Of a stretch of 64,000 nt of DNA, positions 21,100 through 48,247 are shown piece after piece. Origin of the DNA: Azolla caroliniana (taxonomy: Eukaryota; Plantae; Polypodiophyta); assembly GCA_043228905.1 (NCBI GenBank), contig JBHGNT010000012.1, positions 15,624,001 through 15,688,000 on the forward strand, in the 5' to 3' direction. The notes below the pieces were generated by a model that saw only the letters and a program-made list of their open reading frames with translations, was not told where the DNA came from and made no database searches. Within the stretch, counting starts at the first letter, position 1, and every line of letters starts with the position of its first letter. Position numbers and translations under genes: made by a program.

Positions 21100-22591
21100 A
21101 AAAGTTTCCCATGTTCCTCAATGTCCAGCCCAATCAGATTTGTGAAATTCAGACATTATCCGGTTTTGTTGCTCTTCGTCCTGACTACCTGAAGTGGTAT
21201 GCCATCCGATCTTTTCGGCTCCCTCCATATTAATCCATTTTTCAAGAAGAACTTTTGGACTTGCCGCTTCTTACTTCGAATCTCGACTCTCTTCTCTTTA
21301 TTGTTTGATGATTCCTCGATTTCTTGTAGCACTTTTCCGATCAGCAAGCTTTCTCCATCGTATTCTTTTTCCTGGAATTCTCAGATTACGTTCACCCAGC
21401 ATATGTGCTCCGAAGCAAAGTAGTCTTCGGAAACTTCTTCATTATCGGATCTTGTTATGTCATATCCGAACCACACCCTTGATAGCATATCCGCTACCAC
21501 GTTGTCTTTTCCGGAGATGTGTCGTACCTCCGGATCAAGCAACTTAACATATGCAATCCATCTTAGCATAGCCACATCCAGTATCGTGCAACACCGCATC
21601 ATCCCGAGTATCGGAAGACAATCCGTTTCGAACACTACCTCGGCTCCGATCAAATAATCTCGATCCGATTTTATTGCCGACACAACTCCCCATAATTCTC
21701 TTTTGACTTGTGCATATTCGCGTTGCCTTTCGTTGAGAACCTTTGCTCCAAATCGAATCGGATATCACGAACCATCCAAGTCGGCTTGATTGATGACCCA
21801 TCTGATTCTGGTTGGATTTGTGTCAACCGTTACTATGATCGGTCGGTCATAGTTTGGCTTCTTTAGTGCATTTGCCCTCCGTAGTGATTTCTTGAGCTTC
21901 TTCACGGCTTTGGTATGCTCCGGTTTCCATTCGAACTTCTTACCCTTCCGCAACAAGTGATAGAGTGGGTCCGCAATATGTGCATAGTGCGGAATCCATA
22001 TGTGATAGAATGCACATGCTCCAAGAAACCTTCGGACTTCGGATTGTGACTCGCATACTTCTTCCATAGCTTGAATCGCATTAATCTTGGTTGGTGACGG
22101 TCTTCGGCCGTAGGGCCCACATAGATGTCCGACTACCAATATTTCTTCTTGCCCGAATGCCGATTTCTCATCGGAAAGTGTTAGGTGCACATCTTCCAAT
22201 TTTCGAAGCACTTTCTCGCAATCACGAATATGGTCGACTACAAACTTTAGGCATCCCCGATCATCCATAGTTTCATCTTTTTCTTCTACCGTGCATCCTT
22301 TCATTGGAATGTCATTTAGAAACGACATCGTTATCGCCGGAATGCAGTCTCGAAGCACCTTGTTCATTGCATTCATCATATGTGCGACCGAGTTCGTTGC
22401 GCCTTGTGGTAGCGTACACATTCGGACTAATCCTATCGGTGTCTGCATGGTAGTGATATCTCGGCTCTCCACAGCTAGTTGGAATTGGTCATACCCCGAG
22501 TATAGGTCTCCGATGGAGTATATCGCACGACCGGCAAATGCTTCCGCAAATTCGTCCACTATCGGACCGACTCCGGAGTTCCGGTGTCGTG

Positions 22592-25500
22592 CCTTTCGGC
22601 TCCGGATCGTTGCGTGAGTCGGGTGGGAACCGCTGGGGTTTTGGACTAGGAAGAGGAGAGTTTTAAGGCTAATAAGAATATAAATATGTTGTAAGAAAGA
22701 GTTATAGCAAACTCGTGAATCCCACGAGTGTATTGTATTTGATTAATCAATATGAATATAAGAATATAAATTTGGGTTGAAAGAGAATGATATAGAATCC
22801 TCGTGAATCCCACGAGTATAGTTTATTAATTGGTGTTTTTTAGAAACATATCCAGTTTCCAAATATTTTTCACACACAATTACATTGTGCTCCCCATCCT
22901 TATGTAGTGATGAGGAAGTCTTAGTAATCCATGCTTTTTCTCTAACTATAGACCCCATGCTTTTCCTATAGATAGACTATATGCTTTATCTAAAGTGATC
23001 ATGCTTTTTTTCTGACTTGTGCGTTTTTTATCATGCACGCTAGATGTGTATGTGTAGCTTTTTCTTTTGTTATGCGTTTTTCTAATGTTTATCCTAGCGT
23101 GAATTTACCTTTCTATGTGGGACATCTATGCTTTAACACTAATGAAATGCTAGTGTAATGGTAAGACATTACATTATTAACATGGAGGTGCAAGGTTCAA
23201 ATCTTGCCTTATGCATGTTCCATTTATTTTGCTATTTTCTTCTATTTCTTCATTTTTTATTGAATCTAATACTATATACGTTTTTCACGTAGTGTACAAA
23301 ATACACTACGACACTCACCCCCTCCAAACCCGCACATCCTCCGGTATGTGCCGAAGTTGTTGGTGTTTGTTAGTCTCCTCCGTCCGGTCTCTACCCGATT
23401 GGTTTCGTTGCCGGCTCGTAGTACCCTCGACTTCTCTTGTTATGTTGACTTTGTCTCTCCATTTGGAGCACATCCATTCTTTCCACCCGAACCATTGTCG
23501 ACATCCGATCCACCATAGTCTTCGTTCGCTTTTTGCATGGCCTTTCGGCTCCGGATCGTTGCGTGAGTCGGGTGGGAACCGCTGGGGTTTTGGACTAGGA
23601 AGAGGAGAGTTTTAAGGCTAATAAGAATATAAATATGTTGTAAGAAAGAGTTATAGCAAACTCGTGAATCCCACGAGTGTATTGTATTTGATTAATCAAT
23701 ATGAATATAAGAATATAAATTTGGGTTGAAAGAGAATGATATAGAATCCTCGTGAATCCCACGAGTATAGTTTATTAATTGGTGTTTTTTAGAAACATAT
23801 CCAGTTTCCAAATATTTTTCACACACAATTACATTGTGCTCCCCATCCTTATGTAGTGATGAGGAAGTCTTAGTAATCCATGCTTTTTCTCTAACTATAG
23901 ACCCCATGCTTTTCCTATAGATAGACTATATGCTTTATCTAAAGTGATCATGCTTTTTTTCTGACTTGTGCGTTTTTTATCATGCACGCTAGATGTGTAT
24001 GTGTAGCTTTTTCTTTTGTTATGCGTTTTTCTAATGTTTATCCTAGCGTGAATTTACCTTTCTATGTGGGACATCTATGCTTTAACACTAATGAAATGCT
24101 AGTGTAATGGTAAGACATTACATTATTAACATGGAGGTGCAAGGTTCAAATCTTGCCTTATGCATGTTCCATTTATTTTGCTATTTTCTTCTATTTCTTC
24201 ATTTTTTATTGAATCTAATACTATATACGTTTTTCACGTAGTGTACAAAATACACTACGACACTCACCCCCTCCAAACCCGCACATCCTCCGGTATGTGC
24301 CGAAGTTGTTGGTGTTTGTTAGTCTCCTCCGTCCGGTCTCTACCCGATTGGTTTCGTTGCCGGCTCGTAGTACCCTCGACTTCTCTTGTTATGTTGACTT
24401 TGTCTCTCCATTTGGAGCACATCCATTCTTTCCACCCGAACCATTGTCGACATCCGATCCACCATAGTCTTCGTTCGCTTTTTGCATGGCCTTTCGGCTC
24501 CGGATCGTTGCGTGAGTCGGGTGGGAACCGCTGGGGTTTTGGACTAGGAAGAGGAGAGTTTTAAGGCTAATAAGAATATAAATATGTTGTAAGAAAGAGT
24601 TATAGCAAACTCGTGAATCCCACGAGTGTATTGTATTTGATTAATCAATATGAATATAAGAATATAAATTTGGGTTGAAAGAGAATGATATAGAATCCTC
24701 GTGAATCCCACGAGTATAGTTTATTAATTGGTGTTTTTTAGAAACATATCCAGTTTCCAAATATTTTTCACACACAATTACATTGTGCTCCCCATCCTTA
24801 TGTAGTGATGAGGAAGTCTTAGTAATCCATGCTTTTTCTCTAACTATAGACCCCATGCTTTTCCTATAGATAGACTATATGCTTTATCTAAAGTGATCAT
24901 GCTTTTTTTCTGACTTGTGCGTTTTTTATCATGCACGCTAGATGTGTATGTGTAGCTTTTTCTTTTGTTATGCGTTTTTCTAATGTTTATCCTAGCGTGA
25001 ATTTACCTTTCTATGTGGGACATCTATGCTAGTGTAATGGTAAGACATTACATTATTAACATGGAGGTGCAAGGTTCAAATCTTGCCTTATGCATGTTCC
25101 ATTTATTTTGCTATTTTCTTCTATTTCTTCATTTTTTATTGAATCTAATACTATATACGTTTTTCACGTAGTGTACAAAATACACTACGACACTCACCCC
25201 CTCCAAACCCGCACATCCTCCGGTATGTGCCGAAGTTGTTGGTGTTTGTTAGTCTCCTCCGTCCGGTCTCTACCCGATTGGTTTCGTTGCCGGCTCGTAG
25301 TACCCTCGACTTCTCTTGTTATGTTGACTTTGTCTCTCCATTTGGAGCACATCCATTCTTTCCACCCGAACCATTGTCGACATCCGATCCACCATAGTCT
25401 TCGTTCGCTTTTTGCATGGCCTTTCGGCTCCGGATCGTTGCGTGAGTCGGGTGGGAACCGCTGGGGTTTTGGACTAGGAAGAGGAGAGTTTTAAGGCTAA

Positions 25501-26369
25501 TAAGAATATAAATATGTTGTAAGAAAGAGTTATAGCAAACTCGTGAATCCCACGAGTGTATTGTATTTGATTAATCAATATGAATATAAGAATATAAATT
25601 TGGGTTGAAAGAGAATGATATAGAATCCTCGTGAATCCCACGAGTATAGTTTATTAATTGGTGTTTTTTAGAAACATATCCAGTTTCCAAATATTTTTCA
25701 CACACAATTACATTGTGCTCCCCATCCTTATGTAGTGATGAGGAAGTCTTAGTAATCCATGCTTTTTCTCTAACTATAGACCCCATGCTTTTCCTATAGA
25801 TAGACTATATGCTTTATCTAAAGTGATCATGCTTTTTTTCTGACTTGTGCGTTTTTTATCATGCACGCTAGATGTGTATGTGTAGCTTTTTCTTTTGTTA
25901 TGCGTTTTTCTAATGTTTATCCTAGCGTGAATTTACCTTTCTATGTGGGACATCTATGCTTTAACACTAATGAAATGCTAGTGTAATGGTAAGACATTAC
26001 ATTATTAACATGGAGGTGCAAGGTTCAAATCTTGCCCTATGCATGTTCCATTTATTTTGCTATTTTCTTCTATTTCTTCATTTTTTATTGAATCTAATAC
26101 TATATACGTTTTTCACGTAGTGTACAAAATACACTACGACACTCACCCCCTCCAAACCCGCACATCCTCCGGTATGTGCCGAAGTTGTTGGTGTTTGTTA
26201 GTCTCCTCCGTCCGGTCTCTACCCGATTGGTTTCGTTGCCGGCTCGTAGTACCCTCGACTTCTCTTGTTATGTTGACTTTGTCTCTCCATTTGGAGCACA
26301 TCCATTCTTTCCACCCGAACCATTGTCGACATCCGATCCACCATAGTCTTCGTTCGCTTTTTGCATGGC
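22592..26369. repeat. Tandem array of LTR+PPT+3' internal unit (949, 949, 930, 949 bp)
   Basis: Unit starts CCTTTCGGCTCCGG at 22592, 23541, 24490 and 25420. Third unit lacks 19 bp between ATGCT repeats. Confidence 0.95.
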
Positions 26370-26778
26370 CCGCTTGGTCCTTGTCATCCGCGGTAGTATC
26401 TTTTCTTGCCCTCTTTCTTTTCTTCATCAATCTCGACTTCTTTTCGGATTTTCGGTTTAGTCGGATTAGCTTACTTCCGATTCGGTCTCGTCGGATCGTC
26501 TTTCGTTTAGTTCGGCTTCCTTTCCGATTTGTATTCGGTCGATCCGGACTCGGTTGATCGGTTTTTACCGATTCAGTGCTCTTTCGGGTCGGTTTCTTTT
26601 CTTTTCTTTTCGTCCGGATTTGCTTTCTTTTCTTCGTTTTCACCTGCCTTGTCCGGTTTGACTTTCGGCACTTCTTTCCGTTGTTCGCTACGTAGGTCCT
26701 TCGATATGTGCTCGTTGTTCGGTCCTCGTGTGGTTGTAATGCATGCTTCTTTTCTCGCCGTAGCGCGTGCTTCTTTAT

Positions 26779-28185
26779 TCACCATAACACGCGTTTCTTT
26801 ATTCGCCGTAGAGCGTGCTCTGTATTACGCGCTTCTCCCGTCGTAGACCCGACCTCCGCATTGTCGCACTTTCTTTTAGATTGGAATTTCGGATGGATCA
26901 TTTTCCATCCGAACCGACTTCCGACTTTACCTTCCTCGCCGCCATCTCCCGTCTCTCCGGTCTCACGTTGGTTCTCGGACACAACCGCCGAAGTCTCTAG
27001 ATATTGTTGGCATGAATCCTCGGTATTACCTTCTTTCGTAGTTTCACCCTTAGCATTCTTCTCGGCTATCTCTTCATCGTATTCGTCGGCTTCGACATTC
27101 GTTTTCTCTCCGCCACCTTCCGTCTCTTCGGTCTCACGTTGCCTTTCGATCGCAACCGCCGGAGTCTCTGGAATCAGTGGTGGGGAAGTCTCGATATGGC
27201 AATCCGCCATTGATTCGTCCATAGCCACCTCCGATTCGATTTCGTCTTTTGTGGCTACCTCCTTAATCACATCCGCTTCACACTCTTTATCTGCATCAAT
27301 TATGCAAACATCTATTATGCTTACCCCTTTTTGACCCGATGTCTCGGGCACTTGTATCCCGAAATTTCCTTCTACACTTGAATTATCGGCCTTATCCTTC
27401 GCCATCGTTCTTTCACAAGACAAGAGGGTAGCTTGTTTTACACCCTCTTCCGTCACACCATCATGTTGTATTTCGGCCTTCATATCGGCTCCATCGTTTG
27501 TCTTCAATCGACCATCCTTCATCGGCCATGTCGTTGACAAGATTCTCATCTTCCTCTCATCATGTCTCCGGCATACCCTTTGGACTTCGGCCCAATCTTC
27601 GGTAAGACCATTCGTACCTTCATCGTCTTCGAGTTCGATCCCGATGTCCATCCTTTCTTTTCGATCGATCGATTTTACGAACATTAGGACTTTATCCTCC
27701 CCCACCAATCGTTGTTCCCGCTCCGAGAGTCGAGCAAGACGATGCTCGAACTCTAGGAATGCTTGTGTTGCACTTTGGTGGGTCTTCTCCGATGCCACCC
27801 ATTCATCGAACTCTCGCCGATCTCGTCCCTTCGGTCTATCGTAATCATATGCCTCTTGTAAAGCTCCTTCAAAGGACCCCCATGTTGGGTTTTGTTGCCG
27901 TATCTTGTAGATTCTTTCTTGTAACTCATCCGTGGCTACCCGACTGAAGGATATCACTTGCAATCCTTCCGGTATCCCACATCGTATCATCTCCGCCTTG
28001 TAGTCACGTAGATAGCGTGACACATCGTTTCCGTTGAATTGTCCGTTTCGTTGTACGAGCCGCTTTACTGCCCCCGTGATCTCCGACATCACTCGTTGTT
28101 CTTGTAGCATCCGCTCGAACATCATCATCATCGTTATGCTCATTGCCTCTTGTTGATTCTCCATCTCCTTGCCACCCGCCTTCAC
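26779..28185 (-). CDS. Gag-like protein with acidic low-complexity C-terminus (468 aa)
   Basis: Uninterrupted ORF. The N-terminus (GQFNGNDVSRYLRDYKAEMIRCG) is nearly identical to host gag at 42377-42706; the C-terminal half is E/D/T-rich. Confidence 0.8.
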   Translation of the reverse strand: MKAGGKEMENQQEAMSITMMMMFERMLQEQRVMSEITGAVKRLVQRNGQFNGNDVSRYLRDYKAEMIRCGIPEGLQVISFSRVATDELQERIYKIRQQNPTWGSFEGALQEAYDYDRPKGRDRREFDEWVASEKTHQSATQAFLEFEHRLARLSEREQRLVGEDKVLMFVKSIDRKERMDIGIELEDDEGTNGLTEDWAEVQRVCRRHDERKMRILSTTWPMKDGRLKTNDGADMKAEIQHDGVTEEGVKQATLLSCERTMAKDKADNSSVEGNFGIQVPETSGQKGVSIIDVCIIDADKECEADVIKEVATKDEIESEVAMDESMADCHIETSPPLIPETPAVAIERQRETEETEGGGEKTNVEADEYDEEIAEKNAKGETTKEGNTEDSCQQYLETSAVVSENQRETGETGDGGEEGKVGSRFGWKMIHPKFQSKRKCDNAEVGSTTGEARNTEHALRRIKKRVLW

Positions 28186-30322
28186 GTCGGGTTCACCAAC
28201 TGTGTCGTGCCTTTCGGCTCCGGATCGTTGCGTGAGTCGGGTGGGAACCGCTGGGGTTTTGGACTAGGAAGAGGAGAGTTTTAAGGCTAATAAGAATATA
28301 AATATGTTGTAAGAAAGAGTTATAGCAAACTCGTGAATCCCACGAGTGTATTGTATTTGATTAATCAATATGAATATAAGAATATAAATTTGGGTTGAAA
28401 GAGAATGATATAGAATCCTCGTGAATCCCACGAGTATAGTTTATTAATTGGTGTTTTTTAGAAACATATCCAGTTTCCAAATATTTTTCACACACAATTA
28501 CATTGTGCTCCCCATCCTTATGTAGTGATGAGGAAGTCTTAGTAATCCATGCTTTTTCTCTAACTATAGACCCCATGCTTTTCCTATAGATAGACTATAT
28601 GCTTTATCTAAAGTGATCATGCTTTTTTTCTGACTTGTGCGTTTTTTATCATGCACGCTAGATGTGTATGTGTAGCTTTTTCTTTTGTTATGCGTTTTTC
28701 TAATGTTTATCCTAGCGTGAATTTACCTTTCTATGTGGGACATCTATGCTTTAACACTAATGAAATGCTAGTGTAATGGTAAGACATTACATTATTAACA
28801 TGGAGGTGCAAGGTTCAAATCTTGCCCTATGCATGTTCCATTTATTTTGCTATTTTCTTCTATTTCTTCATTTTTTATTGAATCTAATACTATATACGTT
28901 TTTCACGTAGTGTACAAAATACACTACGACACCGGATCGTGATCTTGTTCACCGGTTGCAAGTCTTAGATAAATCAGACTGACCCATTCTTCTTCGGAAC
29001 CGTAAACCATCGATTTGAGTACGGAGCATTTGATGGCTCTAGAATCCCCATTGCCACCTTCTCCTTGAGCAAGTCGATGATTTTTGGAATATGCGCCCGT
29101 GGCACCGGAATCGGCTTCAAGTTCCACGACACATGGTCAATCATGAAGATCACCATCGGCTCCACTATCTTCGGGTCAGCGCATCCTATTTCTTTCGATG
29201 TAAATGCAAATGCTCTCCCATGTCGCTCTAGCATCCCACAGAATCGTTCTTCTTCATTCTTTAATAGGAACCCACCTCCACTGATCTGAAGTTTCTTCCG
29301 GGTCTCATCCGTGAAGGCATGTCCGATATCCATGGACTTCCGAAGTGTCGGATCCCCCGAGACTTCTTTCCTCTTTTGTTCTCTATCGGCGAGTAACGGT
29401 CCCGCGACCGGCTTCACTTTCTTCTCCACGGTCTTGTATTTTGTACTTACCATTGCTTCTTCTTTGCGGAGCGCATCCGGCCCCATTTTCACAATGATCT
29501 CGTACATCTCGACCGATTCCACCGGGACTACCCGGTTTCCCTGGCTTGTATCTTCTGCGAGCTCTTCATGCCGTTGTAGTGTGCTCCCATAGAACACTTC
29601 TTCGTATATTCCCACGATTTCTTCGTCTTCTTTTATTATTGATGCCGACCGTAACTTATCCTCCACTTTTCGGTATTCTTTCTTCATTCCTCCGGTTACA
29701 GCCGTGTACGTGGATGCCCCACTCAGACCGATTTGTACTTGTTTTGCTCCGAGAGGTTTCTTCCTGTGTGTTACCCGTTCCTTTGGGTGAACACCTTCGA
29801 TAGATCTGCGGCTATCGGTATTCAAGGGCTTGGTACGTGAAGGCTCGTAACAGAGGCGTCGAGAGAGAGACAGGGCTCAGAGAGAAAACACTAGCGAGGT
29901 CTTGATAGGTGTGGGCGGCGTTGAACTCATAGGTATGGATCAAAGCACAGACTCATGGAGCAAATTGGGCACAAATCAGATATATTACTATGACAGAAAA
30001 GATTATAGAACACGGCCTATGGCCGGTGACCTTACAAGTTTATCTAGTTACGAGGGACTAAGCTAGTGCTTCCGCCTATATTTTTCTTCTCCCTCTCTCT
30101 GAGGTACTGGTCCTCGTTTAAATAACTTTTCCCCTAATACACAGCCAAGCTGTCGGTGGCCCGTGATACTCGGACTCGGCGTTTGCTAATTCCCTCATTT
30201 TACATTTCTGTCCTCTGGACAACACCTAGCACGCCCGTGGGACAGGAGCTTGTCCGTCGGACCCACGACTTACAAAATACTAACAATATTACAAAAATTG
30301 CCTTTTAGGCGTGATCCTCGTT

Positions 30323-33300
30323 TCATTCCTCTTTTAAGATGTCGAGGATGTTTTCCGGGTCCAGGGTGGTGGAAGGGTGGTCTGGTTGGACTATCGGTGT
30401 GGGGAGTTGAGTTTGGTCCGGGGGTGTCATATCTTCTCCAGCGTCTGCCTCAGGTGCGGCCGATTCTTCTGGTGGGGGTGTGGGTTCGTGGGCGCTGACC
30501 TTTACTTCGACAGGATCTGGTACCGTGTGGGCGTCCATGGGATGTCTGTTGGCCGGGGCAAGTTCCTCCTGTGCCGTGTCCGTGATCTCCTTGCTGGAAG
30601 GTTCTTCCTTCTGCTCTGTGGCCGTTGGAGGGCTGGTTGGGATGGCTGCGAGTCGTTCTCGTTCGAAGGCTTCTGCTTCTAGGCGAAACAACATCTGACC
30701 GTCATTGAAGTCCTCCATTATTTGCTCGATTGCCGCGGTGTGAGATTTTGCCAAGGACTAGTAATCCTCGGTTAAATCTGCACGCAGGTTTTGTATGTTG
30801 GCTTCGTCCATTTTGTAGAAGCCGCGGCCCTCCTTCCGTCGGTTCTTGGCGTCGGCGCGTAAAATATGCAATTCAGCAGCTTGGGCTGCCCATTCGTCTC
30901 CTGCGCGACTTAATGTTTCCTCGACCTTTTTGGTAAGGTGCTGGCGCTGTTTCTCGATCAGTATTCTGATGCGTGTCTCATCCATGTCGGGCTGTGCTCG
31001 GATGGCTGCGAATTCCTGTTTTAAGCCGCCGACCTCGGCCTGAATCTTCTGTGCTCTTAGCTCATAGATGGCTTGAGTGTTCTTTGCATCCGCGGTTACG
31101 AGCTGGAGAGCCTGCTCGTAACGCTTGGTGAGTTCTTCGGTGGCTTGCTCCCGTTCTTTTTGACACGTGGCCCGGATTTGTTCTCGTTCGACGATTCTCT
31201 CTTCTTGTAGGGCGAAGTAGGAATCCGATAATTCGTCTTTTTGCTCCAAAAGTAGCTTGCATTTGATGAAAAACTCGTCAGCCATTTCTTTAAGGGTCGT
31301 ACGCTGACTCTGTAGCTCGGCATTCTCCGCGATCATTCTCTCCTCCCGTTGGCGATTTCTTTCCTCCTGTCGATGGTTCCAGTCTTTTGCATTGTCGAGC
31401 GCGGCCTGTAGGTCTAGGACCTCCTTCTCTTTGTTTGCCACTGTGGCTGCGTATTCCTCCAGCTTGCTATTGAGTTCGGGTTCTTTGCCCGCGGCTTGCG
31501 CTTGTACCCGGCCCAGTGCTTCGTTCTGCTCGTGTATCCTTTGGTCGGCCTGGGATCTCATCTCGGCCATCTGCTTGGAAGCTTCTTCTTTTAGGCGAGC
31601 CATCGCCTGTTGATGCCATTGTTCGTGTCTCTCGGTTCGCCGTTGTTCTTCTTTAAGCTCCGCACGGTAATCCCGGAGCGGGGGTTCTGTCTGGGTTGCC
31701 ACCTCCTTGGGTGCACGAGGTGGTGGTATCTAGGTCTTCTCCATGGGCGTGGGCGCCTCGGTTGTTGTGCAGGCATCGACCATTTGTAACGAGTCCGTTT
31801 GTGTACTCGCCTGCATCGTCAGGATTGAGTCGGTGATGGTGCTTTCATCCATCATTGTTATGCGTGGAGGCGCTGGGAGGGCCTCGGTGGTCGTGACCGG
31901 AAGGCTCAAGAGTTGTTGTTCCGGCCGGTTTTGCTCCCAGGCTGCCAGCTTCTGGTTCGCAGCGTGCCATAATTCTGTAGCCATCTTAGCCTGTTTTTGG
32001 GCTATTTTTATCTTTCGGGCCATGTCTTTGGCTGCCCGCGTAGTGCGATCCAGGTCCCGATATGCCTCGATAAGGGCCGTGTTCAACTCGAGGACCTTCA
32101 TGAGGAGAGCAGCTTGTTTTGCCTGCTTCTTTCTCCCGATTTTTTGTAAAGCCCTGTCCTCCTGGGGCTCAATTTCACGTATTAGCGCGCGTTGAATCAT
32201 TGTTGTTTCGGCGTGCTCCTCCGCCATTCGAGCAGCTGCCGCGACTTGGGCTCTGGCGAGGAAGTCGACCAGCTCGAATGTCGTACCGAGGCGTAGGAGC
32301 GCACTAAATTCGTAAGCCTCCTCGGGGAGGTCCTTATACCCGAGGACTTCATCCTCCGAGATCTGCGTTGTCTGCCCATGCTCGATCTTTCCCTGGTTCA
32401 ACGATGCCTCCTCAGGGATGATGGCCAGGTTGCTCTGTCTGACAACTAAGGCTTGCTCCTGTTGTGGCTCTTTCTGTTCTTCCGAGGACTCGCGGTTAAG
32501 CCGTCTTCTCTTGCTCGGCTGTGTTTGGGGTTCCGGGGCCGGTAGTGTCGTTTCCTCCGCCTACTTCCTTTTCTGGGGTCGTGGTGGTGCAGCCTGCTGT
32601 GTGTTGGGGCGTGGGCTAGGCCCTGGGGAAGTTACCGAGGGGCGCGACGTTGGTTGTCGAATGGTGACATCATCGGCCGTGTTATCTTCCGCGGCTACCT
32701 TCTCCTCCCATTCTTGGTAGGTCTCGGAAACTGCCCTTTTTTGTTGGGGTTGAGTGGGTGGTGGTGCAGATGCGGGGTTTTGGTCAGCGGCAGGAGGTGG
32801 AGGCGATGTGGGCTCCTCCCATGCTTCGTGGCTGATGGCAACGAATTTCTCTTTCTGCCTTCGTGGTGGTGGTGGGGACGTGAGGGTGCGAGGGGAAGGA
32901 AGAGAAGAGCGTGGGTACAGAACCATCAAAAAGTGGGTAAGAACAGAGAGCATCTTCTTACCGGACTGAAATGAAGCTAAGGCGGCGTAGAGTCCCTCGC
33001 CTGTGATGATTCCCCAATCGATTCTGTTTCCTTCATACGCGCTGATGATGATGGTTGCCTTGTTCTGCGGCATGCTCGTTGGGTTCGTATGCACGAATGC
33101 ATACTCCATTAATATACGAGCAATCTCCCCAAAAGCTCTGTTGGGACCGCCATACGTGTGATATGCCTTCCCTGAGGCTGAGTACTCACCGAAGTACGCT
33201 TTCATCTTTGATGCCAGGGGTATGTCGACCTCATGGTCCCCTCCCCGTTGCAGGTCCAAAACAGCCTGAAGCACGTTGTTGGTGATGGCTTCGGGACTTA

Positions 33301-33487
33301 TACGTTTAGCCACAGTTTGGGCATCTGGGTGCGGGGGGGCATCGATGATCTTCAAGTAACCGCCCATTCCTCGTTCCTGGAGCCAAGCGCGGGTTTCTGA
33401 TGAAGCAGTAAGAGGCATGGTGGAGATGGAGACGGGGTTCGACTGTGTGGAAGCGTGAAGAAGAGTGATGAGGCGAGGGCGAGCCAC
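30323..33487 (-). pseudogene. Extra ~1050-codon ORF (globular N-terminus, Pro-rich linker, long coiled coil) broken by in-frame TAG stops
   Basis: ORF pieces 33487-32561, 32401-31730, 31702-30758 and 30754-30323 share one reading frame. The three listed internal pieces end in TAG. Confidence 0.8.
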
Positions 33488-33774
33488 AGTCGGAGCAGCA
33501 GGAAGGGGAAGTCCAGCAGAGGGGTTATGAGAGCGAAAGAGGGCTTGAGAGCAAGAGAGTTTAGCGCGATGAGAGCGAGACGGGGTTTCTGAGCTTGAGA
33601 GCGATGGAGATGGGGAGCGATAATGAACTTATGTGTTTGTGCTGCGTTTTGGAAACGGTTTTAGTAACTTACTCCTAGGGTTTTGTGCCTGAAGCGAATC
33701 CTGAAGATTCTGAGTCGTGGGTGCCATAATAAGTGACTAGCACCATGTGTCCTGAAGGTGAGTGGGGTGCTTCT

Positions 33775-34514
33775 TGACGGGAACCCAACGTTCCTTATGC
33801 GCAACGCTCGGCCACAACCGAGATTATTTTCATACACAGAAAATAGGAAATAGAACACGACACAAAGAGGAAGACAAATACACTGGAGGTTTACGTGGAA
33901 AACCCCAAACTAGGGGAAAAACCACGGCAGCCCACGGGCTGCAAACTGTCACTATGTAAGAATGTACAAAACTGTGAGTTCACGGAGGCAACGACCTCGT
34001 GCTCACAATCTTCGCCACAGGAGGCGGTTACAACAGAGGCAAAGACCTCGTCTCTCTCTCTCTCTCTCTGTACAGTTGCGCGCTCTCTCTTCTTCTTGCA
34101 CCAACAATGAAGAATAACAAAAAAAAAACACAATTAGTTTTGCCCTAAGTCATATTTATACTAATATGACTTTTCGGCTATTTACAAATATAGCCACAAT
34201 GGGCTCTCAGAAACATATTTACGAATATGTCTCTTCCTCCGGTTCATACCCGGTCTGCACCATCCGGCTCTCCGTAGCCAGGTACTCCTCATCCGGCATC
34301 CGGCTCTCCGTAGCCGAGTACTCCTCATCCAGTTCATACCGGGCCTGTATCATCCGGCTCTCCGTAGCCGGGTACTCCTCATCCGGTTCATACCGGGCCT
34401 ATATCATCCGGCTCTCCGTAGCCGGGTACTCCTCATACCGTTTCGGCCTCGGCCGAGTTTGTTTGTCGGCACTGTTCTTCTCCCTTCCCATCCGGAGGGA
34501 CCTGTTTCCCAACA
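33775..34514 (-). mobile_element. Solo LTR related to Copia A/B LTRs
   Basis: Minus strand begins TGTTGGGAAACAGGTCCCTCC (cf. 7654); TSD CTTCT/CTTCT; internal ~50-bp tandem repeats 34238-34440. Confidence 0.85.
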
Positions 34515-37500
34515 CTTCTAGTGCTTTGCATGTGCTTAAATAGGTACTAAATGAGTGGTGGCGAGGGGTGCTCCTAAAATTGTGGGTGCCTAGGTGGGTG
34601 GTGTAGGTGTAGCTAATCGGTGGCTAAACTATGGTTAATCCTACCTACTACTACTTTTATTAATTTCAAGAAGGTGGGTGAGTCCTTATTCAGGGGGACA
34701 CTTGGCCTCCTCCGTGGTGGTCTCCCGAAACTCGTTTGTGCCGTGTGGCTCGGTAAACGGGTTGGGTGGTGTAGTCCCTCGATATGGTCGAAGTCGGAAA
34801 CCTTGGCCCAGCTTTTGACAGTGTCGTCGGCGAGTGTGCCGAGCTAGAACGTCCCGTTGAACTCGTCGATAATCCAGAATGGACCGGTCCACCGAAATCT
34901 TAATTTTCCCGGCATAGACCCGAGTCGTGATTGAAAAAGAAGAACCGGTTTGCCGATGGTGAGCTCCTTTTCCAGCCCGTGTCGATGTCGATCCACGAAA
35001 GCCTTGCGTTGCCGTTGGCGTTGTTCGAGCTGGGCCATACTCTCTATCCTATCTTCGCCGAGTTCGAGGAGTTGTTCCAACCGGTATTGCTCGGATTGGG
35101 CCTCGGGGAGCCGTGCTTTGACTTGAACTTGGAGTCTCGGGACTTGGAACTCGACGGGCATTACGGCTTCTAACCCGAACGACATTCGAAAGGGGGTTGA
35201 TTGGATGCTTGTTTTGAAAGTCGTACGATACGCCCACAGCGCGCTCTGGAGTTTGTAATCCCAATCGGTCCTATTTTCATTGACGATCTTCTTCAGTATG
35301 GTTTGGAGGATTTTATTGGTCGATTCCGCCAAGCCGTTCGCCTGCGGGTTGCATGGTGTGCTTTTCTTGTGCACCACCGCGTAGTGGTGTGTAAGCTCAC
35401 GTATTATGTGATTGATGAAGTGCCCACCTTGATCACTAACGAGCTCGATTGGGCATCCGTAACGGCACCAGAGGTACTCATACACGAATTTAGCCGTGGA
35501 TGCCGCCGTGTTATCTCGGAGTGCCTTAGCCTCGACCCATTTGGTGCAGTAATCCGTGGCAACAATAATATACCTATTCCCTGTTCGGGCCGCGGGTGGT
35601 TTGAAAGGGTCTACAAAATCCAAACCCCATTTTTGACATGGGTCCAACGGAAGAATCGGCTAGTGTGGCATCTGTGACTGTTCCATTGGTTGCCCTAGTT
35701 GTTCGCACAAATCGCACTGCCAACAAAACTCTGCCCTAGTCTTTCTTCGTTGTCGGCCACCACAATCCACTTTGCCAAACTTTCCTTGCCATGGAATCCC
35801 CGGCGTAGTGCCCCCCAGCTACTCCCTGGTGGGCTTCCTGAAGAACGGCGTTCTTCTCGAATTGCCGAATCGCTCGGCGCCATATGCCGTCCGAGCCTTT
35901 GTGGTAGAGAATGTCCGAGACGAGGCAAAAATTCCGGCTACGCACTGCTAGGCGTTTTCTCATGTCAAGGGTCATGTGCTCAGGAGGTACACCGGTAGTG
36001 AGAAAATGGGTCATCTCCGTGATCCATTCATCTCCGTTATCGTTTGGTATCGTGGTCAGGTTAAATAGGTTGGCGTCCGGTAGCTCGTCGTACGTTGTTT
36101 TTGCCGGTTCCCCTGACTCAAGACGGCTCAAGTAGTTGGCGACGACATGTTGTACCCCGGGTCGATGCTGAATTTGGAAATCAAACTCTTGTAGTAGGAG
36201 CATCCACCGAGCCAACCATCCGGTGAGGGCTTGTTTATTGACCAAATAAAGAAGGGCTGAGTGATCCACGTGAAAGGTAAATTTTTGGCCCAAGAGGTAA
36301 TGCCGAAATTTATTGATGCTATAAATCATACCGAGGGCCTCCCGCTCGGTGGTGGAGTAATTCTTTTCCGCGGTCGAGAGCCGTTGGCTGGCGTAGTACA
36401 CGGGCCTATACCAATTCGGGGGTGTGCATTGCATCAGGGCACTTCCGATGGCGATGTCCGAAGCATCTACGAAGACATTAAACGGTTCGGACCAAACCGG
36501 GGACTGGACCACTGGGGCATGTGACAACATTCGTTTCAGGGTCTGATAAGCCGTTTCCTTGATTGACGTCCATTGGAAAGGAAGGCGATGGACTGCCGCG
36601 TGTAAAGGTGTCGCGAAATCAGCCAGGTGTCGTATCATTCGGCCGTGCCACCGGATCTGTCCCAAAAAAGGGCTTAGTGCCTTAGCGTTCGAGGGTGCGG
36701 TGGCATTCAGGATTGCCTTTACTTTATCCGGGTCCATAGCGATGCCTTCTTGACTGACAATGTGGCCGAGAAGGTTGCCGCGGGTTTAAACTCAATCGAG
36801 CTTGGCGACATCGGTCCAGGCAGAGTCGTAACTGGGTCATGTGTTCCCGTCGATGGCCATACACGGCGAAATCGTCGAGAAAGACTTGCATGAACGCCGG
36901 GATGTAGTCATGAAAGATTTCGGTGATGATGCGCTGGAGCGTAGCCGGCGCCGTTTTTAGACCGAACATCATAACTTCTGCTACAAAAACACCCCATTCC
37001 GTGACGAAAGCGGTTTTCTCCTGATCCTCCGGGTGCATTCTTATCTGGTTATAGCCGCTGAACCTATCGAGGAAACTGTAGCATTCGTGGCCGGCTACCA
37101 TGTCGAGGATGCTATCCGTGAATGGGAGAGGGAAACCGTCGGTGACTGTTGCCGCGTTAAGCTTCCGATAGTCGACGTAGATGCGGATTTTTCCGTTCTT
37201 CTTTGGGACCACTACGATCGGGCTCAACCACGTGGCCCGTTTAACAGGGCAAATGAAGCCCACTCGGAGTAGTTTGTCGATTTCCTCTTTGACTTTAGTG
37301 GCGTAGTTGGGGTTCATCCTGTAGCGCCTCTGCTGAACCGGCTGAGTGTCGGGTAAGATATGAATTTGATGTTGGTAGTATTGAGGATCTAGCCCCTTCA
37401 TATCGGTGTAAGACCAAGTGAAAACATCCTGGTAGTCGGTGAGCAATTTTACGAGGCATGCCCGTTCTCCGGTTGGTAGATTATTGGCAATTTGTAACGT

Positions 37501-40500
37501 ACGGGGATTCTCGTCCGAACCGAGGTTTATTGTTTCCAGGGTTGATGCTTTCACTCGTTGTGAAATGGCGAGTTCGCGTTCGAAAGCCTCCCGAGCATGA
37601 CGTAGCTCGGCAACTGTGGTTGGATCTGGTTCATCTTGGGGTGGTGACTCCTCCGTGACTTCCTCGTCTTTAGATGGCTCGATGGTTGGTAAGGCATCTA
37701 TTTCGAAGAGAGGGATGATTGTGGGATGATCATCTAGGAATTCATCGACCTCCTCATCGGCCAAACCGTCAAGCATATGGGCCCCTTCCGAGTATAACGG
37801 CGAAGTGTTGAGGGCGACGGGGACTCGTTCTTCAGTGATGATGCGGACTTTTGTCTTGCCTCTTCGGAACGAGATCATGTTGCGTTGCCAATGTTGCTTG
37901 ATATTCGTTGTAAGCAACCATGGTCGACCTAGTAACAATGGGTAGGCGCCTTGTGTCTCCAGTCTTAGCACAACGGGCGAGATCGTGAACATGTGGCCTC
38001 CGAGTGTGAAGTCGAGATGGCGGATTAAACCAATGGGGCAAACGGAGCGGGTGTCGGCCATCCGAAGCCAAAAGGGGCATGGTTCCCATTGATTCAGGCC
38101 GAGGTTGAGACACATTAACTCGCTAATAACATTTACGCCGGATCCGTCGTTGATGATGCATCCGTGCAGGTCTTGTCCCTTAATGATGATTCGCACGGCT
38201 GGGTTCTGAGAATCCATGAGTGGTAGACCGGTTCCTACTTCGGTGAGGTGTACCGGTGGCGTCACGGGCTTAGTATTGGCCTGGAGTGCCGCCAGGGTGT
38301 CCCGAAATCTCGGCATGAGTGGTAGCAGTTTATGTAGGGGCAGCGAGACGCGGGAGTTGGTAAGAACATCCCATAGCTGGTCGTCCTCCGACGACGTGGA
38401 TGGTGCCGAGGTTTGTGGTACTTCACTGGGCCCGTCTCTCATGTCAGTTTGCATGCGTACGACATTATTTTTATTGGCCGTGTCGATCCATTCTTTTGTT
38501 GCCTGACGTACTTCATCCTGGATTTGCCACTGAGTAGTCTGCGCTTTACTCCAGGTAGTGACCGTTTGAATATCAGCCATGATACTGTTCACCGCGGGTG
38601 CCTTGCCACGGTTGGTTGTCGGACATTGCGTGGTGTAGTGGCCTGGATGATTACATTTAAAACATGTCACGTTGGCCGAGCTGCTGGTGTCCGCTCAGTC
38701 TGTGTGTGGAAGCTGTTGTTGATTCTCGGTCTCGTTTGGTGGTGGGTTGTTCTGAGGTGCGTTGGAGTTGCGCTAGTCATTTTGAGGAGCATCCCGTCGG
38801 CGGTTGTCATTAGGTCTTCTATTGTTGCGTGTGTTGCGGTTGCCATTTCGCCGATCAATGCGTGAGTTCCGTCGGTCATACCGGTCATCGCGATCATCAT
38901 CATATCGGGCATAATCGTCGTGACGGTCATCATGTCAGTAATCATCGTCGATCCGGGGATCGCGGTTGGTCGTTATCCTGGTCTCGGTAGATATATCGCT
39001 CGTCCTGCCGAGAGTATGTATTTCGTGGCTCGATTTGGCGGACCGGTGCCGCCGTTGTGCGGTTCAGCATATTATATTCGCACTGCTCGACCGTGTGAGC
39101 TCGAGACTGACAGATCGGACACTGTGGTCGGTGGGGACATTCGAGGGCCAGGTGCCCTGATCCTGAACTCGTCGTGCATTGGAGGGCTTGGCGAAAGCGA
39201 TTGACCTCTTGGGGAAGAGCGTTTTGCAAGGATGTCATCGAGAAGGCCGCGCCGTGCTGGTTCTGATCGAGGGCGAGAACGCGCGCTATGACTTGTTCGA
39301 TAGTATGGTTGGCGAAATTTGTAAGTGCGAGAGTCGTTCGTAGAGGCTCTCGTAAACTAGATAGGAAAGTGTCTGGTATATGTTGTGCCGAGACATCATC
39401 GGCCACTTGTCTGTAGAGATCCTGGAACCGGATCGTGAACTACGCGACCATTTCGTGCGGTTCCTGGTATATAGAGAAGAATTGCCAGAGCAGTTCCTGT
39501 TTAGGCACCTCGCGATGAAAAAGTTCAAGGAACTTTGTGCGCACGATTTGGAAAGTGGTGGCCTCTACTATTTCGAGGCGAGAGTACCATCGTGCGGCCG
39601 GTCCATCGAGGGAGAGTGTGAACTCGGCAATCTTTGAGGCCTCGATTTCGGCCGGCGTGAGGCGGTGCGTGGAGTGGTTAGCCTGCCACGTGGATATGAA
39701 GGCACGGATGTGTGACTCTGCGTCTGGTCCGTCGGTGTATCGTGGGTATGGGTACGGCATGATGTCGTACTCTGGGTCTTCTGGTAGCACCGGAAAAGGG
39801 TTTAGTTCCGGTTGATTGACCTCCGGAGGGCTCGACGGGGGTTTTGGTGGTGAATCAACTCGTGATCGAGTGTCCGGTGGCGAGGATTGCACTAGGGAAG
39901 CCTCTGATTGCTCGGGAAAGGATTCGTTAGTGACCGCCGAGTCGGAAGTTCCTTCGACTGGCTCAGGGCGTCGGGCGGGTGGCCGAGACCTCGTGGTGCG
40001 AGAGGGCGCCGTAACGACGGCTGGTGGTTACCTTCAACGAAGTTCATTGTGCACTCACAGCCGTAACCGGGCGTGCCAAATTGTGTTACCCGTTCCTTTG
40101 GGTGAACACCTTCGATAGATCTGCGGCTATCGGTATTCAAGGGCGTGGTACGTGAAGGCTCGTAACAGAGGTGTCGAGAGAGAGACAGGGCTCAGAGAGA
40201 AAACACTAGCGAGGTCTTGATAGGCGTGGGCAGCGTTGAACTCATAGGTATGGATCAAAGCACAGACTCATGGAGCAAATTGGGCATAAATCAGATATAT
40301 TACTATGACAGAAAAGATTACAGAACATGGCCTATGGTCGGTGACCTTACAAGTTTATCTAGTTACGAGGGACTAAGCTAGTGCTTCCGCCTATATTTTT
40401 CTTCTCCCTCTCTCTGAGGTACTGGTCCTCGTTTAAATAACTTTTCCCCTAATACACAGTCGAGCTGTATGTGGCCCGTGATACTCGAACTCAGCGTTTG

Positions 40501-43500
40501 CTAATTCCCTCATTTTACATTTCTGTCCTCTGGACAACACTGTGTGGGGTATTAGGGCTTCTCGGACTATCACTTCCCCACTCCGCAACAGTCCACTCTA
40601 AAAATCCATTCTTATTTGGGACAAGAGCTCTCTCTTGTTCCTTTCATGATTTGCTAGCACCGTTAGGAATTGGACGGATTTCCCTCCGTTTTGGCTCCAA
40701 ATTCGTGCAAAAGCCACACCACTATCGAGCACCTTCGTCTCCATCCGTGACGTCGTGATAAAGGGTTGCCCGAGGATCACGGAGTGTGAGACCTCGTCTT
40801 GTACGAAGAAATTTTGGTCAATCTCGACATCCCCGATCTTCACCATCACATCCAGACAAGCCGCAAATAGATCTTTCGTTGCTTTAGTGGCCGCCCAGAT
40901 CTTCCACCCATGATTGGTGTTAATAGGCCACTTTCCCTTCCGGTAGAACTCCTTAGACATCAAATTGATCTCCGATCCGTGATCAATCAATGCTAGCACG
41001 GGCTCTTTGATGTTGCTGATTCGGACCGGAGTCTCGGTAGTTGCACGCGCCCAGTGTGGCTTTGTATAGTGGGAATTCGGAATCTCATCCTCCACTTCGG
41101 TGTCGTTCATCAGAACGGTATTTGCATTCACTATCGGTGCATTTTCCTCCATACTCTGTCTTTTTCTCTTCACGAGATCCACAAGAAGATCGTGGAACTC
41201 CTTCGCTATTCCGAGTAATTCCCGAAGCGAAAATTCTACCCGGCTATCGAGGATTCTCTCTTCGAATACCTTTTTCAAGTACGTTTGTTGTTCGATGTCC
41301 GAGGCGAGCTTGAATGTTGGAATCTTCTTTTCTTTTCCCTTCCCTCCGGAGTTCCAGCTTTCCGGTGTCTTTGATGGTCCAGCTGCATCATCTGTGCGCC
41401 GTCGTTTTTCATCCACATACACTTCATGCAATTGACATAGCGCATGTACGCTATTCTTATCTACGGGGCACTCCCATCCCATAGCTTCCCGGATACATTC
41501 CGTGGCGCTTTGGATTTCATCATGATCGGTGTTCTTCGAAATTTCTAACACTTCTGGCCAAAAAGACACCTTTGCTGCAGATGACTCCCCCACATGTATT
41601 CCCGCGGTTTTCGCATAATTGCCTTTCGCCGCGATTTCCTCCTCTAGGACCTTCTTCATGCCACCTTTCCGGAAGTTCGGTCGAAGTGGCTTCCGAGAAT
41701 CTATCGAATGAATCTGATTTCCCTCGTAGTAGATAAGATCCTGTCGTAACGCCTCCTTGTGCTCGTCGCAATCTCTCCGATCATGTTCGGTGCTATTGCA
41801 CCATATGCATCGACGGTCCATGTACTTAGAACTTGTGGGACGGTCTTCCGTCTTCTTCACCATTGTGATTTTCAGATTCTCCATCTCCTTCAGCAATTGC
41901 TCCACCGTGGTTGCGTCGATTCCCTTCTCGGTTGTAGTCTCCCGAGCCCGCGGTTGATGGTCTTCCGATCTGGATCTCGGTTTCGGAATCGGTTCCGAAA
42001 CCCTCTTTTCTTTGTTGGCAAGCCATTGCCCCCTCTTTGTGTATCTCACGACAATATCCTGCACGCTTTCTCATGTTTCGGTGAGGCCACTCTCGGTAGT
42101 CGTGTCCTCTAGAAGCACTCCAAGATCCTTCCGGTCCTAGACATCTACGGCTCATAAGAACATGATAACTTTGTCCGGTGCGAGGATAGCTTGATCTCTC
42201 GCAGACAACCTCCCCAACTGACTTTCGAATGCCGAAAACACATCGAGGACCTTCATCCCCTTGTCCGGCGTTTCCACCCAATCCTCAAATCCTCTCCGCG
42301 CTGCCTTGGAGGAGTCCTTGATAGCAAACGTGGTCTTTAATGCCTCTTCAAACGCTTACCACGTCGGATTTTGTTGTCATAGCCCGTGGATACTTGCTTG
42401 AAGCCCGTCGGTAGCCACCCGGTTGAAGGATGTCACTTGTAGTCCTTCCGAAATCCCACATCGTATCATTTCCGCCTTGTAGTCCCAAAGATAGCGTGAT
42501 ACGTCCTTTCCATTGAATTGCCCGATCAGTTGCACAAGCCGCTCTACTGCCGCTACTATTTCCGACATCACACGTTGTTCTTGAAGCATCCGCTCGAACA
42601 TCATCATCATGTTGTTAGCCTCCGGTTGATTTTCCATCTCCTTGCCACCCGTTTTCACGTCGGGTTCACCACTTGTGTCGTGCCTTTCGGCTCCGGATCG
42701 TTGCATGAGTCAGGCGGAAACCACTGAGGTTTTTCGACTAGGAGAAAAGAAAATTCTAAGGCAATGAAGAATATGAAATATGTTGTAAGAAAGAAAGATA
42801 TGAAAACCTCGTGAATCCCACGAGTATAGTGTATTAGTGAGTACTCAGATTAAGAGAGAAAAATAGTTAGCAAATTCGTGAATCCCATGATTATATTATA
42901 TTAATCCACCCTTGTAAAATAAGCAACAACCCCCCATACATCTTTCTCTCCTCCTTATATAAGGATGGCAGAGGCTAAGCATAGCTTCATGCTTTTTCTA
43001 AAGTGTTCATGCACACTAAATCTGCATGAGTTGCCTTTTTACGCTATGCTTTTATTTCCTAAATATAGTGCTCATGCTCACTAGATGTGCACGAGTCATC
43101 TTTTATTGGTGTACATTTTTCTTATAAATAAAGTATTCACGCATTCTAAAAAATGCATGACTTTCCTTTTAATAAAGGTAGGTGTAAATAAAGGTCTTAT
43201 ATGTATTAAATCTATATTTAGAACACTTAGGATAAGTTAGTACAATGGTAAGGTTGGGGTTTGTTTACATGGAGGTACAAGGTTTGAATCTTGCCCTATG
43301 CACGTAATAAATGTTTTTAATATTTTATTTTATTTATTATACATACTTTAAATCGGATATAGTATTTTACATATTTCACGTAGTGTGTGATTCACACTAC
43401 GACAACGTTCCTCGATTGTTTCCGCTTTCTTGCCAAAATTGGGAGTTATTTTCATAGGTCAGAGCTCGTCCGCCTCGTCCTTGGCCGAATCGGCCTCTTC

Positions 43501-46419: not shown

Positions 46420-47110
46420 CAAGAAAAGGTGTGGAACAAGCCACCTTCTTGTTTTGCAGAGAAATGATGGTCAAGGATGAGGTAGATAACCTGAAAGAGG
46501 CGAACACCAACCCAAAAGAGGATGTGTTTTGGAACTCGTGTTGTGTTCAGGACCACAAGCAACGATGATAAAACTAGGGGAGAAGGTGTAGAACAAGTCA
46601 CCTTCTTGTCTTGCGATGAAACGAAGGCCAAGGATGAGGCGGATAACCTGAAAGAGGCGAACACCAATCCAAAAGAGGATGAGTGTTTTGGAACTCGTGT
46701 TGTGTTCAAGACCGCAAGCAACGATGATAAAACTAGGGGAGAAGGTGTGGAACAAGACACCTTCTTGTCTTTCGATGAGACGAAAGCCAAGGATATGGCG
46801 GATAACCTAAAAGAGGCGAACGACAACCCAAAAGAGGATGAGTGTTTTGGAAGTCATGTTGTGTTCAGGACCGCAAGCGACAATGATAAAATGAGGGGAG
46901 AAGGTGTGTAACAAGCCACTTGCTTGTCTTGTGATGAAACGAAGGGCAAGGACGAGGCCGGTAACATGAAAGTGACATACGTCACCCCAAGAGTGGATGA
47001 GTGTTTCAAAACACGCATTGTGTTCGGAACCTCAAGCGACGACGAAGAAACCACGGGTGAAGGTGTGGAACAAGTCACCTTCTCGACATGTGATGAAATG
47101 ACGACCGAGG
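46420..47110 (+). repeat. 159-bp (53-codon) tandem repeat x~4
   Basis: GATGAGGCGGATAACC-like anchors at 46476, 46633, 46792 and 46951. Confidence 0.85.
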
Positions 47111-48052: not shown

Positions 48053-48247
48053 GCCATAGCCATCATCATAGCCATCCCCATAGCCATAGCCATAGCCATA
48101 GCCATAGCTAGAGACATAGCCATCACCATAGCCATAGCCATCACCATAGCCATAGCCATAGCCATGGCCATAGCCATAGCCATGGCCATAGCCATCACCA
48201 TGGCCATAGCCATAGCCATGGCCATAGCCATCACCATGGCCATAGCA
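48053..48247. repeat. (GCCATA/GCCATG)n hexanucleotide microsatellite
   Basis: About 30 imperfect hexamer units. Confidence 0.95.

What the first reader, a model, noticed from the sequence alone, without database searches (positions are those of the whole stretch)
30225..30243. Gypsy element with two facing tRNA-Arg primer sites and no polypurine tract
Seen: element 29769-40539 encodes gag-pol on the minus strand and has a normal PBS (TGGCACGCCCGGT, 40066-40078) 5 nt inside its 5' LTR. Where the PPT should lie, 2 nt inside the 3' LTR, there is no purine run. Instead the opposite strand reads TAGCACGCCCGTGGGAC, a near copy of the tRNA-Arg(UCU)-type PBS TGGCACGCCCGGTGGGAC as I recall it. Established: LTR elements prime second-strand DNA from an RNase H-resistant PPT. 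Inference: the genomic RNA carries a tRNA-3'-end mimic at its 3' end. Either a second tRNA primes plus-strand synthesis on the cDNA (dual tRNA priming), or the RNA 3' region pairs with its own PBS (circularisation or self-priming). Either would be a non-canonical replication mode.
Basis: partly seen in the sequence, partly recalled or inferred. Interest (0 to 1): 0.82.

Follow-up and report, generated by a model that had tools for sequence, protein, structure and literature searches.

The report
Second tRNA primer replaces polypurine tract
A whole lineage of plant jumping genes lacks the purine-rich signal that normally starts the second DNA strand and carries, at that exact spot, a conserved match to a host transfer RNA; rare insertions still have the real transfer RNA copied onto that end, so these elements likely start both DNA strands with host transfer RNAs, which would be a new way of copying a retroelement.

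Summary
Confirmed and extended. Element 29769-40539 (non-chromoviral Ty3/gypsy) has no PPT. 2 nt inside the 3' LTR lies a 40-nt site matching 27 of the last 28 nt of host tRNA-Arg(UCU), with a covarying hairpin inserted at A58. It is clade-wide: 15 of 15 3' LTRs picked by LTR alone, 1,340 exact motif copies, while 9 of 9 other LTR elements in a blind sample have a PPT. Self-pairing with the PBS fails as a general rule: family B primes its minus strand with tRNA-Arg(UCG) yet keeps the UCU site. Family E's site follows a second host UCU isodecoder. Three independent insertions in three sister families carry mature tRNA-Arg(UCU) (CCA, stop or misread at A58) joined through the family's own spacer to the left LTR end, as expected if a tRNA primed the plus strand. 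Best reading: dual tRNA priming (0.8). Main rival: the element's own tRNA-like RNA is the primer; 7 left ends carry 55-260 nt of element sequence. No biochemical test. Not found in 10 literature searches. This scan noted the site before on other pieces of the same genome.

The parts
29764..29768 (.). Target-site duplication CTGTG, left copy
29769..30224 (-). 3' LTR, 456 nt
30225..30226 (-). 2-nt spacer between the CCA end of the tRNA match and the LTR; the length integrase is known to trim from a linear cDNA end (established knowledge)
   Evidence: 2 nt in 30 of 30 loci; one sub-family has 4 nt
30227..30243 (+). Inverted tRNA site, core: complement of tRNA-Arg(UCU) nt 59-76 with one C (65/66) unpaired; G>A change at 30228 in this copy
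30244..30256 (.). 13-nt insertion at the tRNA 58/59 junction holding a 4-bp hairpin with compensatory changes; this copy has a mismatch at 30248
30257..30266 (+). Second arm: complement of tRNA nt 49-58 (T-arm 5' strand), one G-U type wobble in this family
30323..33628 (-). Extra ORF region 3' of pol, same sense, broken by stops; no Pfam match; conserved in sister families at 30-50% identity
34844..38694 (-). pol: zinc knuckle, protease region, RT, RNase H, integrase, in three frames (broken copy); no aRH, no chromodomain
38942..40027 (-). gag, interrupted by a stop
40066..40078 (-). 5' primer-binding site, 13-nt exact match to tRNA-Arg(UCU)
40079..40083 (-). 5-nt spacer between 5' LTR and PBS
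40084..40539 (-). 5' LTR, TATA-like box at 40433-40439
40540..40544 (.). Target-site duplication CTGTG, right copy

Best explanation
This Gypsy clade has no polypurine tract and carries a conserved inverted tRNA-Arg(UCU) site 2 nt before its 3' LTR, which likely lets a second host tRNA anneal to the finished minus-strand DNA and prime the plus strand. Shown: the site, its position, its conservation, its match to host tRNA genes, and mature tRNA joined to left LTR ends. Inferred steps: (1) a tRNA at the 5' PBS primes the minus strand (Arg-UCU or Arg-UCG, by family); (2) RNase H removes the RNA over the 3' site; (3) tRNA-Arg(UCU) pairs with the exposed DNA through nt 59-76 and 49-58, the element's hairpin looped out opposite m1A58 as a three-way junction, much as the HIV-1 primer activation signal engages the T-arm; (4) RT extends the CCA end through the 2-nt spacer into U3; (5) RNase H normally removes the tRNA and integrase trims 2 nt; (6) when removal fails, the minus strand copies the tRNA, leaving the fossils seen.
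For: Clade-wide and exact: 15 of 15 family A 3' LTRs among 30 loci chosen by LTR sequence alone; 18 of 18 family B 3' LTRs among 30 loci, two from one duplication; 30 of 30 motif loci followed by 2 nt and TG; 4 of 4 clade elements against 0 of 9 other LTR elements in two blind 200-kb blocks plus the window. All 15 tRNA-site rows form one clade, support 100/100. Match to tRNA nt 49-58 averages 8.3 of 10 against 4.2 and 4.7 in controls; hairpin pairs are Watson-Crick in 41 of 52 dereplicated sites each, shuffle maxima 37 and 34 of 10,000 shuffles (relatedness not corrected). Cofolding gives the three-way junction, 27 of 28 tRNA nt paired (RNA energies as proxy). Independent of the 5' primer: family B PBS is a 13-nt match to tRNA-Arg(UCG). 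Follows the host tRNA: a second UCU isodecoder exists in tandem arrays, and 145 matches fit it, 27 of the first 30 being 3' sites with the same 1-nt gap. Left-end fossils, three events in three families, each with the C that the element lacks, CCA and the family's own spacer: G000 C2:12.00-12.02 Mb, 56 nt, outside a 5' LTR followed by a UCG PBS and gag; C2:12.74 Mb, about 50 nt with A58 read as T; C16:17.53 Mb, circle-type LTR-LTR junction, exactly 18 nt, ending at position 58. In two of the three families the minus-strand primer is a different tRNA.
Against: No biochemical or cDNA-end data; no RNA run was available. No fossil was found for family A itself (8 matches, none family A). Seven LTR left ends carry 55, 114, 206, about 215, 222, 235 and 260 nt of the element's own upstream sequence (11 of 21 hits examined in detail), more events than the 3 tRNA fossils, so plus strands can start from genomic RNA upstream. 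The fossils could also come from a template switch from a genomic tRNA-like primer onto a packaged tRNA. The invariant 1-nt gap is unexplained for a pairing site, and my motif searches selected for it. G-U wobble lets either isodecoder pair with the family E site almost equally (-51.3 and -52.4 kcal/mol), and old G>A decay may account for some AAG copies.
Confidence: 0.8

Rival explanations
1. The element's own RNA is the plus-strand primer: a tRNA-like fold resists RNase H, is cut after its CCA, and acts as a non-purine PPT equivalent.
For: Position is exactly that of a PPT; the hairpin covaries; the segment can fold as a T-arm-like stem; 7 left ends retain element sequence.
Against: None of the 7 is limited to the 40-nt motif; lengths scatter from 55 to 260 nt. 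Three left ends carry real tRNA with A58 signatures. The site follows host isodecoders. The largest family B subgroup has lost two of the five stem pairs without compensation. The fold is no more stable than shuffles (z -0.5 and 0.0).
Confidence: 0.13
2. The 3' region pairs with the element's own PBS to circularise the RNA or to self-prime, and plus-strand priming happens some other way.
For: In families A and E the PBS and 3' site pair over 11 nt, and in E both changed at the same two positions.
Against: Family B and related subfamilies pair over only 4 nt yet are the most numerous; the change in E is explained by a real isodecoder; the site matches tRNA nt that the PBS does not cover; it gives no plus-strand primer. 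It may still be a side effect in A and E.
Confidence: 0.04
3. The site is a non-functional relic or a one-off rearrangement.
For: The T at the position-58 equivalent and the 18-nt core show the site first arose as a reverse-transcribed tRNA end.
Against: Conserved across families whose pol proteins are 53-75% identical and whose LTRs do not align, in metagenome contigs only 66-94% identical to own-genome copies, and in elements with paired LTRs and TSDs.
Confidence: 0.03

Closest known systems
Canonical Ty3/gypsy and retroviral reverse transcription (Ty3: PMC5371799, passages; HIV-1: PMC13191261, passages)
   Same: LTRs, TSD, gag-pol order, tRNA-primed minus strand, copying of tRNA that stops at or reads past m1A58 (right-end fossils).
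   Different: Both papers give an element-encoded, RNase H-resistant PPT as the plus-strand primer. Here there is none.
Bipartite 5'/3' PBS of yeast Ty3 and Drosophila Gypsy (PMC5371799, passages; PMC1635307, abstract and section 19)
   Same: A second tRNA-related site near the 3' end of the genome.
   Different: Those sites are complementary to tRNA on the RNA strand, bind inner parts of the minus-strand primer and bridge the RNA ends; Ty3 keeps its PPT. Here the RNA has tRNA sense, so only the cDNA can bind the tRNA, the match includes the CCA end, and it can be a different tRNA from the 5' primer.
HIV-1 primer activation signal (PMC13191261, passages)
   Same: Extra pairing to the T-arm of the primer tRNA beyond the 18-nt site.
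   Different: PAS acts on RNA at minus-strand initiation; here the analogous arm would act on DNA at plus-strand initiation.
Athila / OTA non-chromovirus lineages, Phygy, Selgy (PMC6317226, passages and supplement 3)
   Same: No chromodomain, no aRH, 5-bp TSD and an extra 3' ORF as in Athila.
   Different: Athila PBSs are Asp/Asn/Ala; Arg PBSs are listed only for aRH-bearing Tat groups; Phygy and Selgy have 4-bp TSDs. The paper treats the PPT as general and reports no tRNA site at the 3' LTR in the passages seen.
C. elegans Cer7 with a tRNA-like insert near the 3' end (recalled; PMC311226 was not held)
   Same: tRNA-like, CCA-ended sequence in the 3' region of a Gypsy RNA.
   Different: As recalled, proposed as a self-encoded minus-strand primer matching its own PBS; family B rules that out here. 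Not checked.

Membership tests
Ty3/gypsy LTR retrotransposon | Direct LTRs with TG...CA ends and a TSD | tested here: met
Ty3/gypsy LTR retrotransposon | Order gag-PR-RT-RH-IN; RT closest to Ty3 | tested here: met
   (best PDB match Ty3 RT 4OL8, E 8.5e-36)
Ty3/gypsy LTR retrotransposon | 5' PBS complementary to a host tRNA 3' end | tested here: met
Ty3/gypsy LTR retrotransposon | Polypurine tract next to the 3' LTR | tested here: not met
Athila (REXdb) | No aRH and no chromodomain; 5-bp TSD; extra 3' ORF | tested here: met
   definition
Athila (REXdb) | Dominant PBS Asp/Asn/Ala; Athila ORF-1 domain in some | tested here: not met
   PBS is Arg; no PF03078 match
Athila (REXdb) | Placement inside the Athila clade on RT-RH-INT trees | tested here: inconclusive
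   RNase H region only, no REXdb references; the clade groups with liverwort, fern and conifer proteins, apart from the four angiosperm rows
Tat/Ogre/Retand | Additional aRH domain | tested here: not met
Phygy / Selgy | 4-bp TSD, Trp or Ala PBS, no extra ORF | tested here: not met
   the surrounding element 19154-43404 fits Phygy and is far away on the tree
Bipartite-PBS elements (Ty3, Drosophila Gypsy) | 3' site complementary to tRNA on the genomic RNA, PPT kept | tested here: not met
   opposite orientation, no PPT
Self-priming elements (Tf1/Tcn1) | PBS pairs with the element's own RNA, no tRNA match | tested here: not met
   PBS matches host tRNAs; right-end tRNA fossils
Dual-tRNA priming (proposed) | tRNA covalently at the 5' end of plus-strand DNA in particles | not testable with these tools
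   only genomic fossils

The most novel reading that the evidence does not exclude
A clade of plant Ty3/gypsy elements has abandoned the polypurine tract and primes both DNA strands with host tRNAs, often two different ones, using a DNA-side bipartite binding site that forms a three-way junction at m1A58 and follows host tRNA isodecoder changes: a categorically new plus-strand priming route for LTR retroelements.
Probability: 0.78. Interest if true: 0.93.

Novelty: new variant of a known kind. Interest (0 to 1): 0.88.

Why it matters
The PPT is taught as a fixed part of LTR retroelement and retrovirus replication. A successful clade (well over 1,300 copies here, some with LTRs 98-99% identical) that does without it shows the plus-strand primer can come from the host. 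It makes testable how RT and RNase H choose and remove primers, ties transposition to the supply and modification of one tRNA, offers a second target for tRNA-fragment silencing, and means PPT-dependent LTR finders and orientation calls can miss or invert such elements. Even the main rival, a tRNA-like RNA acting as PPT, would be new.

Tried and rejected
One-off rearrangement: rejected. Searches were biased, as the query held the motif, so LTR-only searches and blind blocks (48, 49, 52) were used for counts. In one search, 13 of 26 rows were dropped as a tandem-repeat array without LTR ends; Copia and Tcn1-like labels there are inferred from PBS type and weak RT hits. Wrong element orientation: rejected by ORFs and the TATA-like box. 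First pattern for tRNA-Arg(UCG) found nothing; a looser one found 3 genes and 3 right-end fossils. L154, L155, L420, L429, L454-L456, L460 were read as ordinary 5' PBSs of non-autonomous families, and L061, L069-L071, L418, L453, L457-L459 as minus-primer fossils; none was counted as plus-strand evidence. L340 (10 nt) is ambiguous and not counted. Of 20 upstream stretches fetched to pair PBS with AAG-type 3' sites, only 3 gave a readable PBS: one family E element matched the second isodecoder, two non-autonomous ones did not clearly. Of 16 fetched, 5 showed the PBS directly. Folding energy of the site is not better than shuffles. No relatives in viral contigs; the 2 bacterial matches look like chance (one inspected). 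No RNA holder listed. Laid contigs showed no tRNA-LTR joint (contigs drop rare variants). Literature searches without a description of tRNA-primed plus strands; subscription journals are mostly absent, and the per-element table of PMC6317226 and bioRxiv supplements were not seen.

Full report
Observation. The element spans 29769-40539, with 456-nt LTRs that differ at 14 places, TG...CA ends and the TSD CTGTG. gag, RT, RNase H and integrase lie on the minus strand in broken frames, followed by an extra ORF region without Pfam match. The PBS at 40066-40078 matches 13 nt of host tRNA-Arg(UCU); five such genes were found among 12 pattern hits. Before the 3' LTR the longest purine run in 60 nt is 3 nt. 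The + strand there reads as a second PBS, 2 nt from the LTR.

It is a family and clade trait. Of 30 loci picked by LTR sequence alone, 15 are 3' LTRs and all 15 have the site; 13 are 5' LTRs and 2 solo LTRs. The exact 17-nt motif occurs 1,340 times in the genome, its reversed control never; the first 30 loci all continue with 2 nt and TG into many different LTRs. In two blind 200-kb blocks plus the window, 13 of 26 rows were real LTR elements: the 4 of this clade have the site, the other 9 have a purine tract. The 15 rows with the site form one clade (100/100) among 41 RNase H-region sequences; nearest named relatives are liverwort, fern and conifer proteins at 40-49% identity. The motif is also in 117 metagenome stretches, all listed ones from one assembly series, 66-94% identical to own-genome copies, and its bin is the deepest interior bin in runs of three organism labels. 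The host is likely a moss, inferred from co-resident Phygy-type and Tcn1-like elements.

Anatomy of the site. It covers 30225-30266: a 2-nt spacer, the complement of tRNA nt 59-76 with one C unpaired, a 13-nt insertion, and the complement of nt 49-58. Over 52 dereplicated sites the second arm matches 8.3 of 10 on average against 4.2 and 4.7 in flanking controls, and the two variable pairs of the inserted hairpin are Watson-Crick in 41 of 52 each, above all 10,000 shuffles; relatedness is not corrected. Cofolding with the tRNA gives a three-way junction with the hairpin looped out between nt 58 and 59. m1A58 cannot form Watson-Crick pairs and is the usual RT stop (PMC13191261, passages). On the RNA the site has tRNA sense, so only minus-strand DNA can bind a tRNA there.

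Self-pairing tested. Family B has an LTR that does not align with this one. All 18 of its 3' LTRs among 30 loci carry the same UCU site, but its PBS matches tRNA-Arg(UCG) over 13 nt and its own 3' site over only 4. Family E changed both sites at the same two positions, which first looked like self-pairing; the host proved to have a second UCU isodecoder in tandem arrays with exactly these changes. 145 matches fit it; 27 of the first 30 are gapped 3' sites, about half from family E. Wobble lets either isodecoder pair, so this is supportive, not decisive.

Fossils. Right ends that kept a copy of the minus-strand primer carry that family's PBS tRNA, 18 nt or read through to 44-56 nt. Three independent left ends carry mature tRNA-Arg(UCU) in plus sense, with the C the elements lack, CCA and the family's own spacer. 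At C2:12.00-12.02 Mb 56 nt sit outside a family B 5' LTR that is followed by its UCG PBS and gag; three copies come from one duplicated event. At C2:12.74 Mb about 50 nt with T at position 58 precede the 5' LTR of a short element with a UCG-type PBS. At C16:17.53 Mb an element with a TSD has tandem LTRs joined as right end, one T, exactly 18 tRNA nt, the 2-nt spacer, left end: a two-LTR circle junction; its own 3' site differs from the tRNA. None was found for the window's own family.

Results against. A search for LTRs with the site upstream and the PBS spacer downstream gave 21 hits. Ten are 3' LTRs with long internal flanks; of the 11 aligned in detail, 2 are tandem elements, 1 is the tRNA fossil, 1 is ambiguous, and 7 carry 55-260 nt of the element's own upstream sequence. 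Their scattered lengths fit stray priming from upstream RNA fragments, but they keep the rival alive in which the element's RNA is the primer and the fossils arise by template switching. The conserved 1-nt gap is unexplained, the fold is no more stable than shuffles, and nothing here is biochemical.

Mechanism and comparison. Most likely a second tRNA-Arg(UCU) anneals to the minus-strand DNA and primes the plus strand (0.8); the element's tRNA-like RNA as primer 0.13; self-pairing 0.04; relic 0.03. Ty3 and HIV-1 use a PPT (PMC5371799 and PMC13191261, passages). The 3' PBS of Drosophila Gypsy and Ty3 binds the minus-strand primer on the RNA (PMC1635307, abstract and section 19). REXdb lists no lineage with this set of traits (PMC6317226, passages and supplement 3); the element is Athila-like but fails the Athila PBS test. 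PMC3286476 (passages) and the ATHILAfinder preprint (abstract and section 5) added nothing. Ten searches found no description of tRNA-primed plus strands; coverage of subscription journals is poor. Nineteen earlier notes of this scan, the 8 shown all from this genome, reach the same reading; they are not independent support, and a word search for fossil or isodecoder notes found none.

Verdict. Real, clade-wide, and probably a new priming route inside a known kind of element. Interest 0.88.

Noticed in passing
window 19154-43404 and 22585-28931: The element sits inside a Phygy-type Gypsy (tRNA-Trp-type PBS, label recalled; 4-bp NCGN TSD; ordinary PPT); a related copy holds a 949-bp tandem array of LTR plus 3' internal sequence.
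   Followed up: partly
G000 C11:0.69-0.70 Mb and C22:1.43-1.50 Mb (L388-L402): Tandem arrays of a second tRNA-Arg(UCU) isodecoder with a changed acceptor stem; one array also holds a tRNA-Lys gene.
   Followed up: partly
L420, L429, L437, L438, L454-L456, L460, L154, L155: Non-autonomous elements of this clade whose 5' PBS is followed by about 17 nt complementary to the anticodon arm of tRNA-Arg(UCU), a further extended tRNA contact.
   Followed up: partly
L340 / L461 (G000 C11:7.905 Mb): An LTR joined in inverted orientation to the PBS of a non-autonomous element through the shared 10-nt tRNA end, with an 18-nt tRNA copy at its other end; possibly recombination through primer remnants.
   Followed up: partly
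L453, L457, L458, L459, L156: 18-nt tRNA copies at LTR ends all show T at the position-58 equivalent, as does the 3' site itself; likely an RT signature of m1A58.
   Followed up: partly
window 30323-33628; L203, L112: Clade-wide extra ORF of about 1,100 codons after integrase, coiled-coil-like by eye, without Pfam match.
   Followed up: no
window 46423-47164 and 48020-48283: A 159-bp tandem repeat and a degenerate 6-bp repeat array.
   Followed up: no
window 14831, 16471, 23156, 43243, 57545 and further copies: A dispersed 55-nt repeat family with tRNA-like D- and T-arm motifs, some inside Phygy-type LTRs (family D12); ARAGORN calls no tRNA in the window.
   Followed up: no
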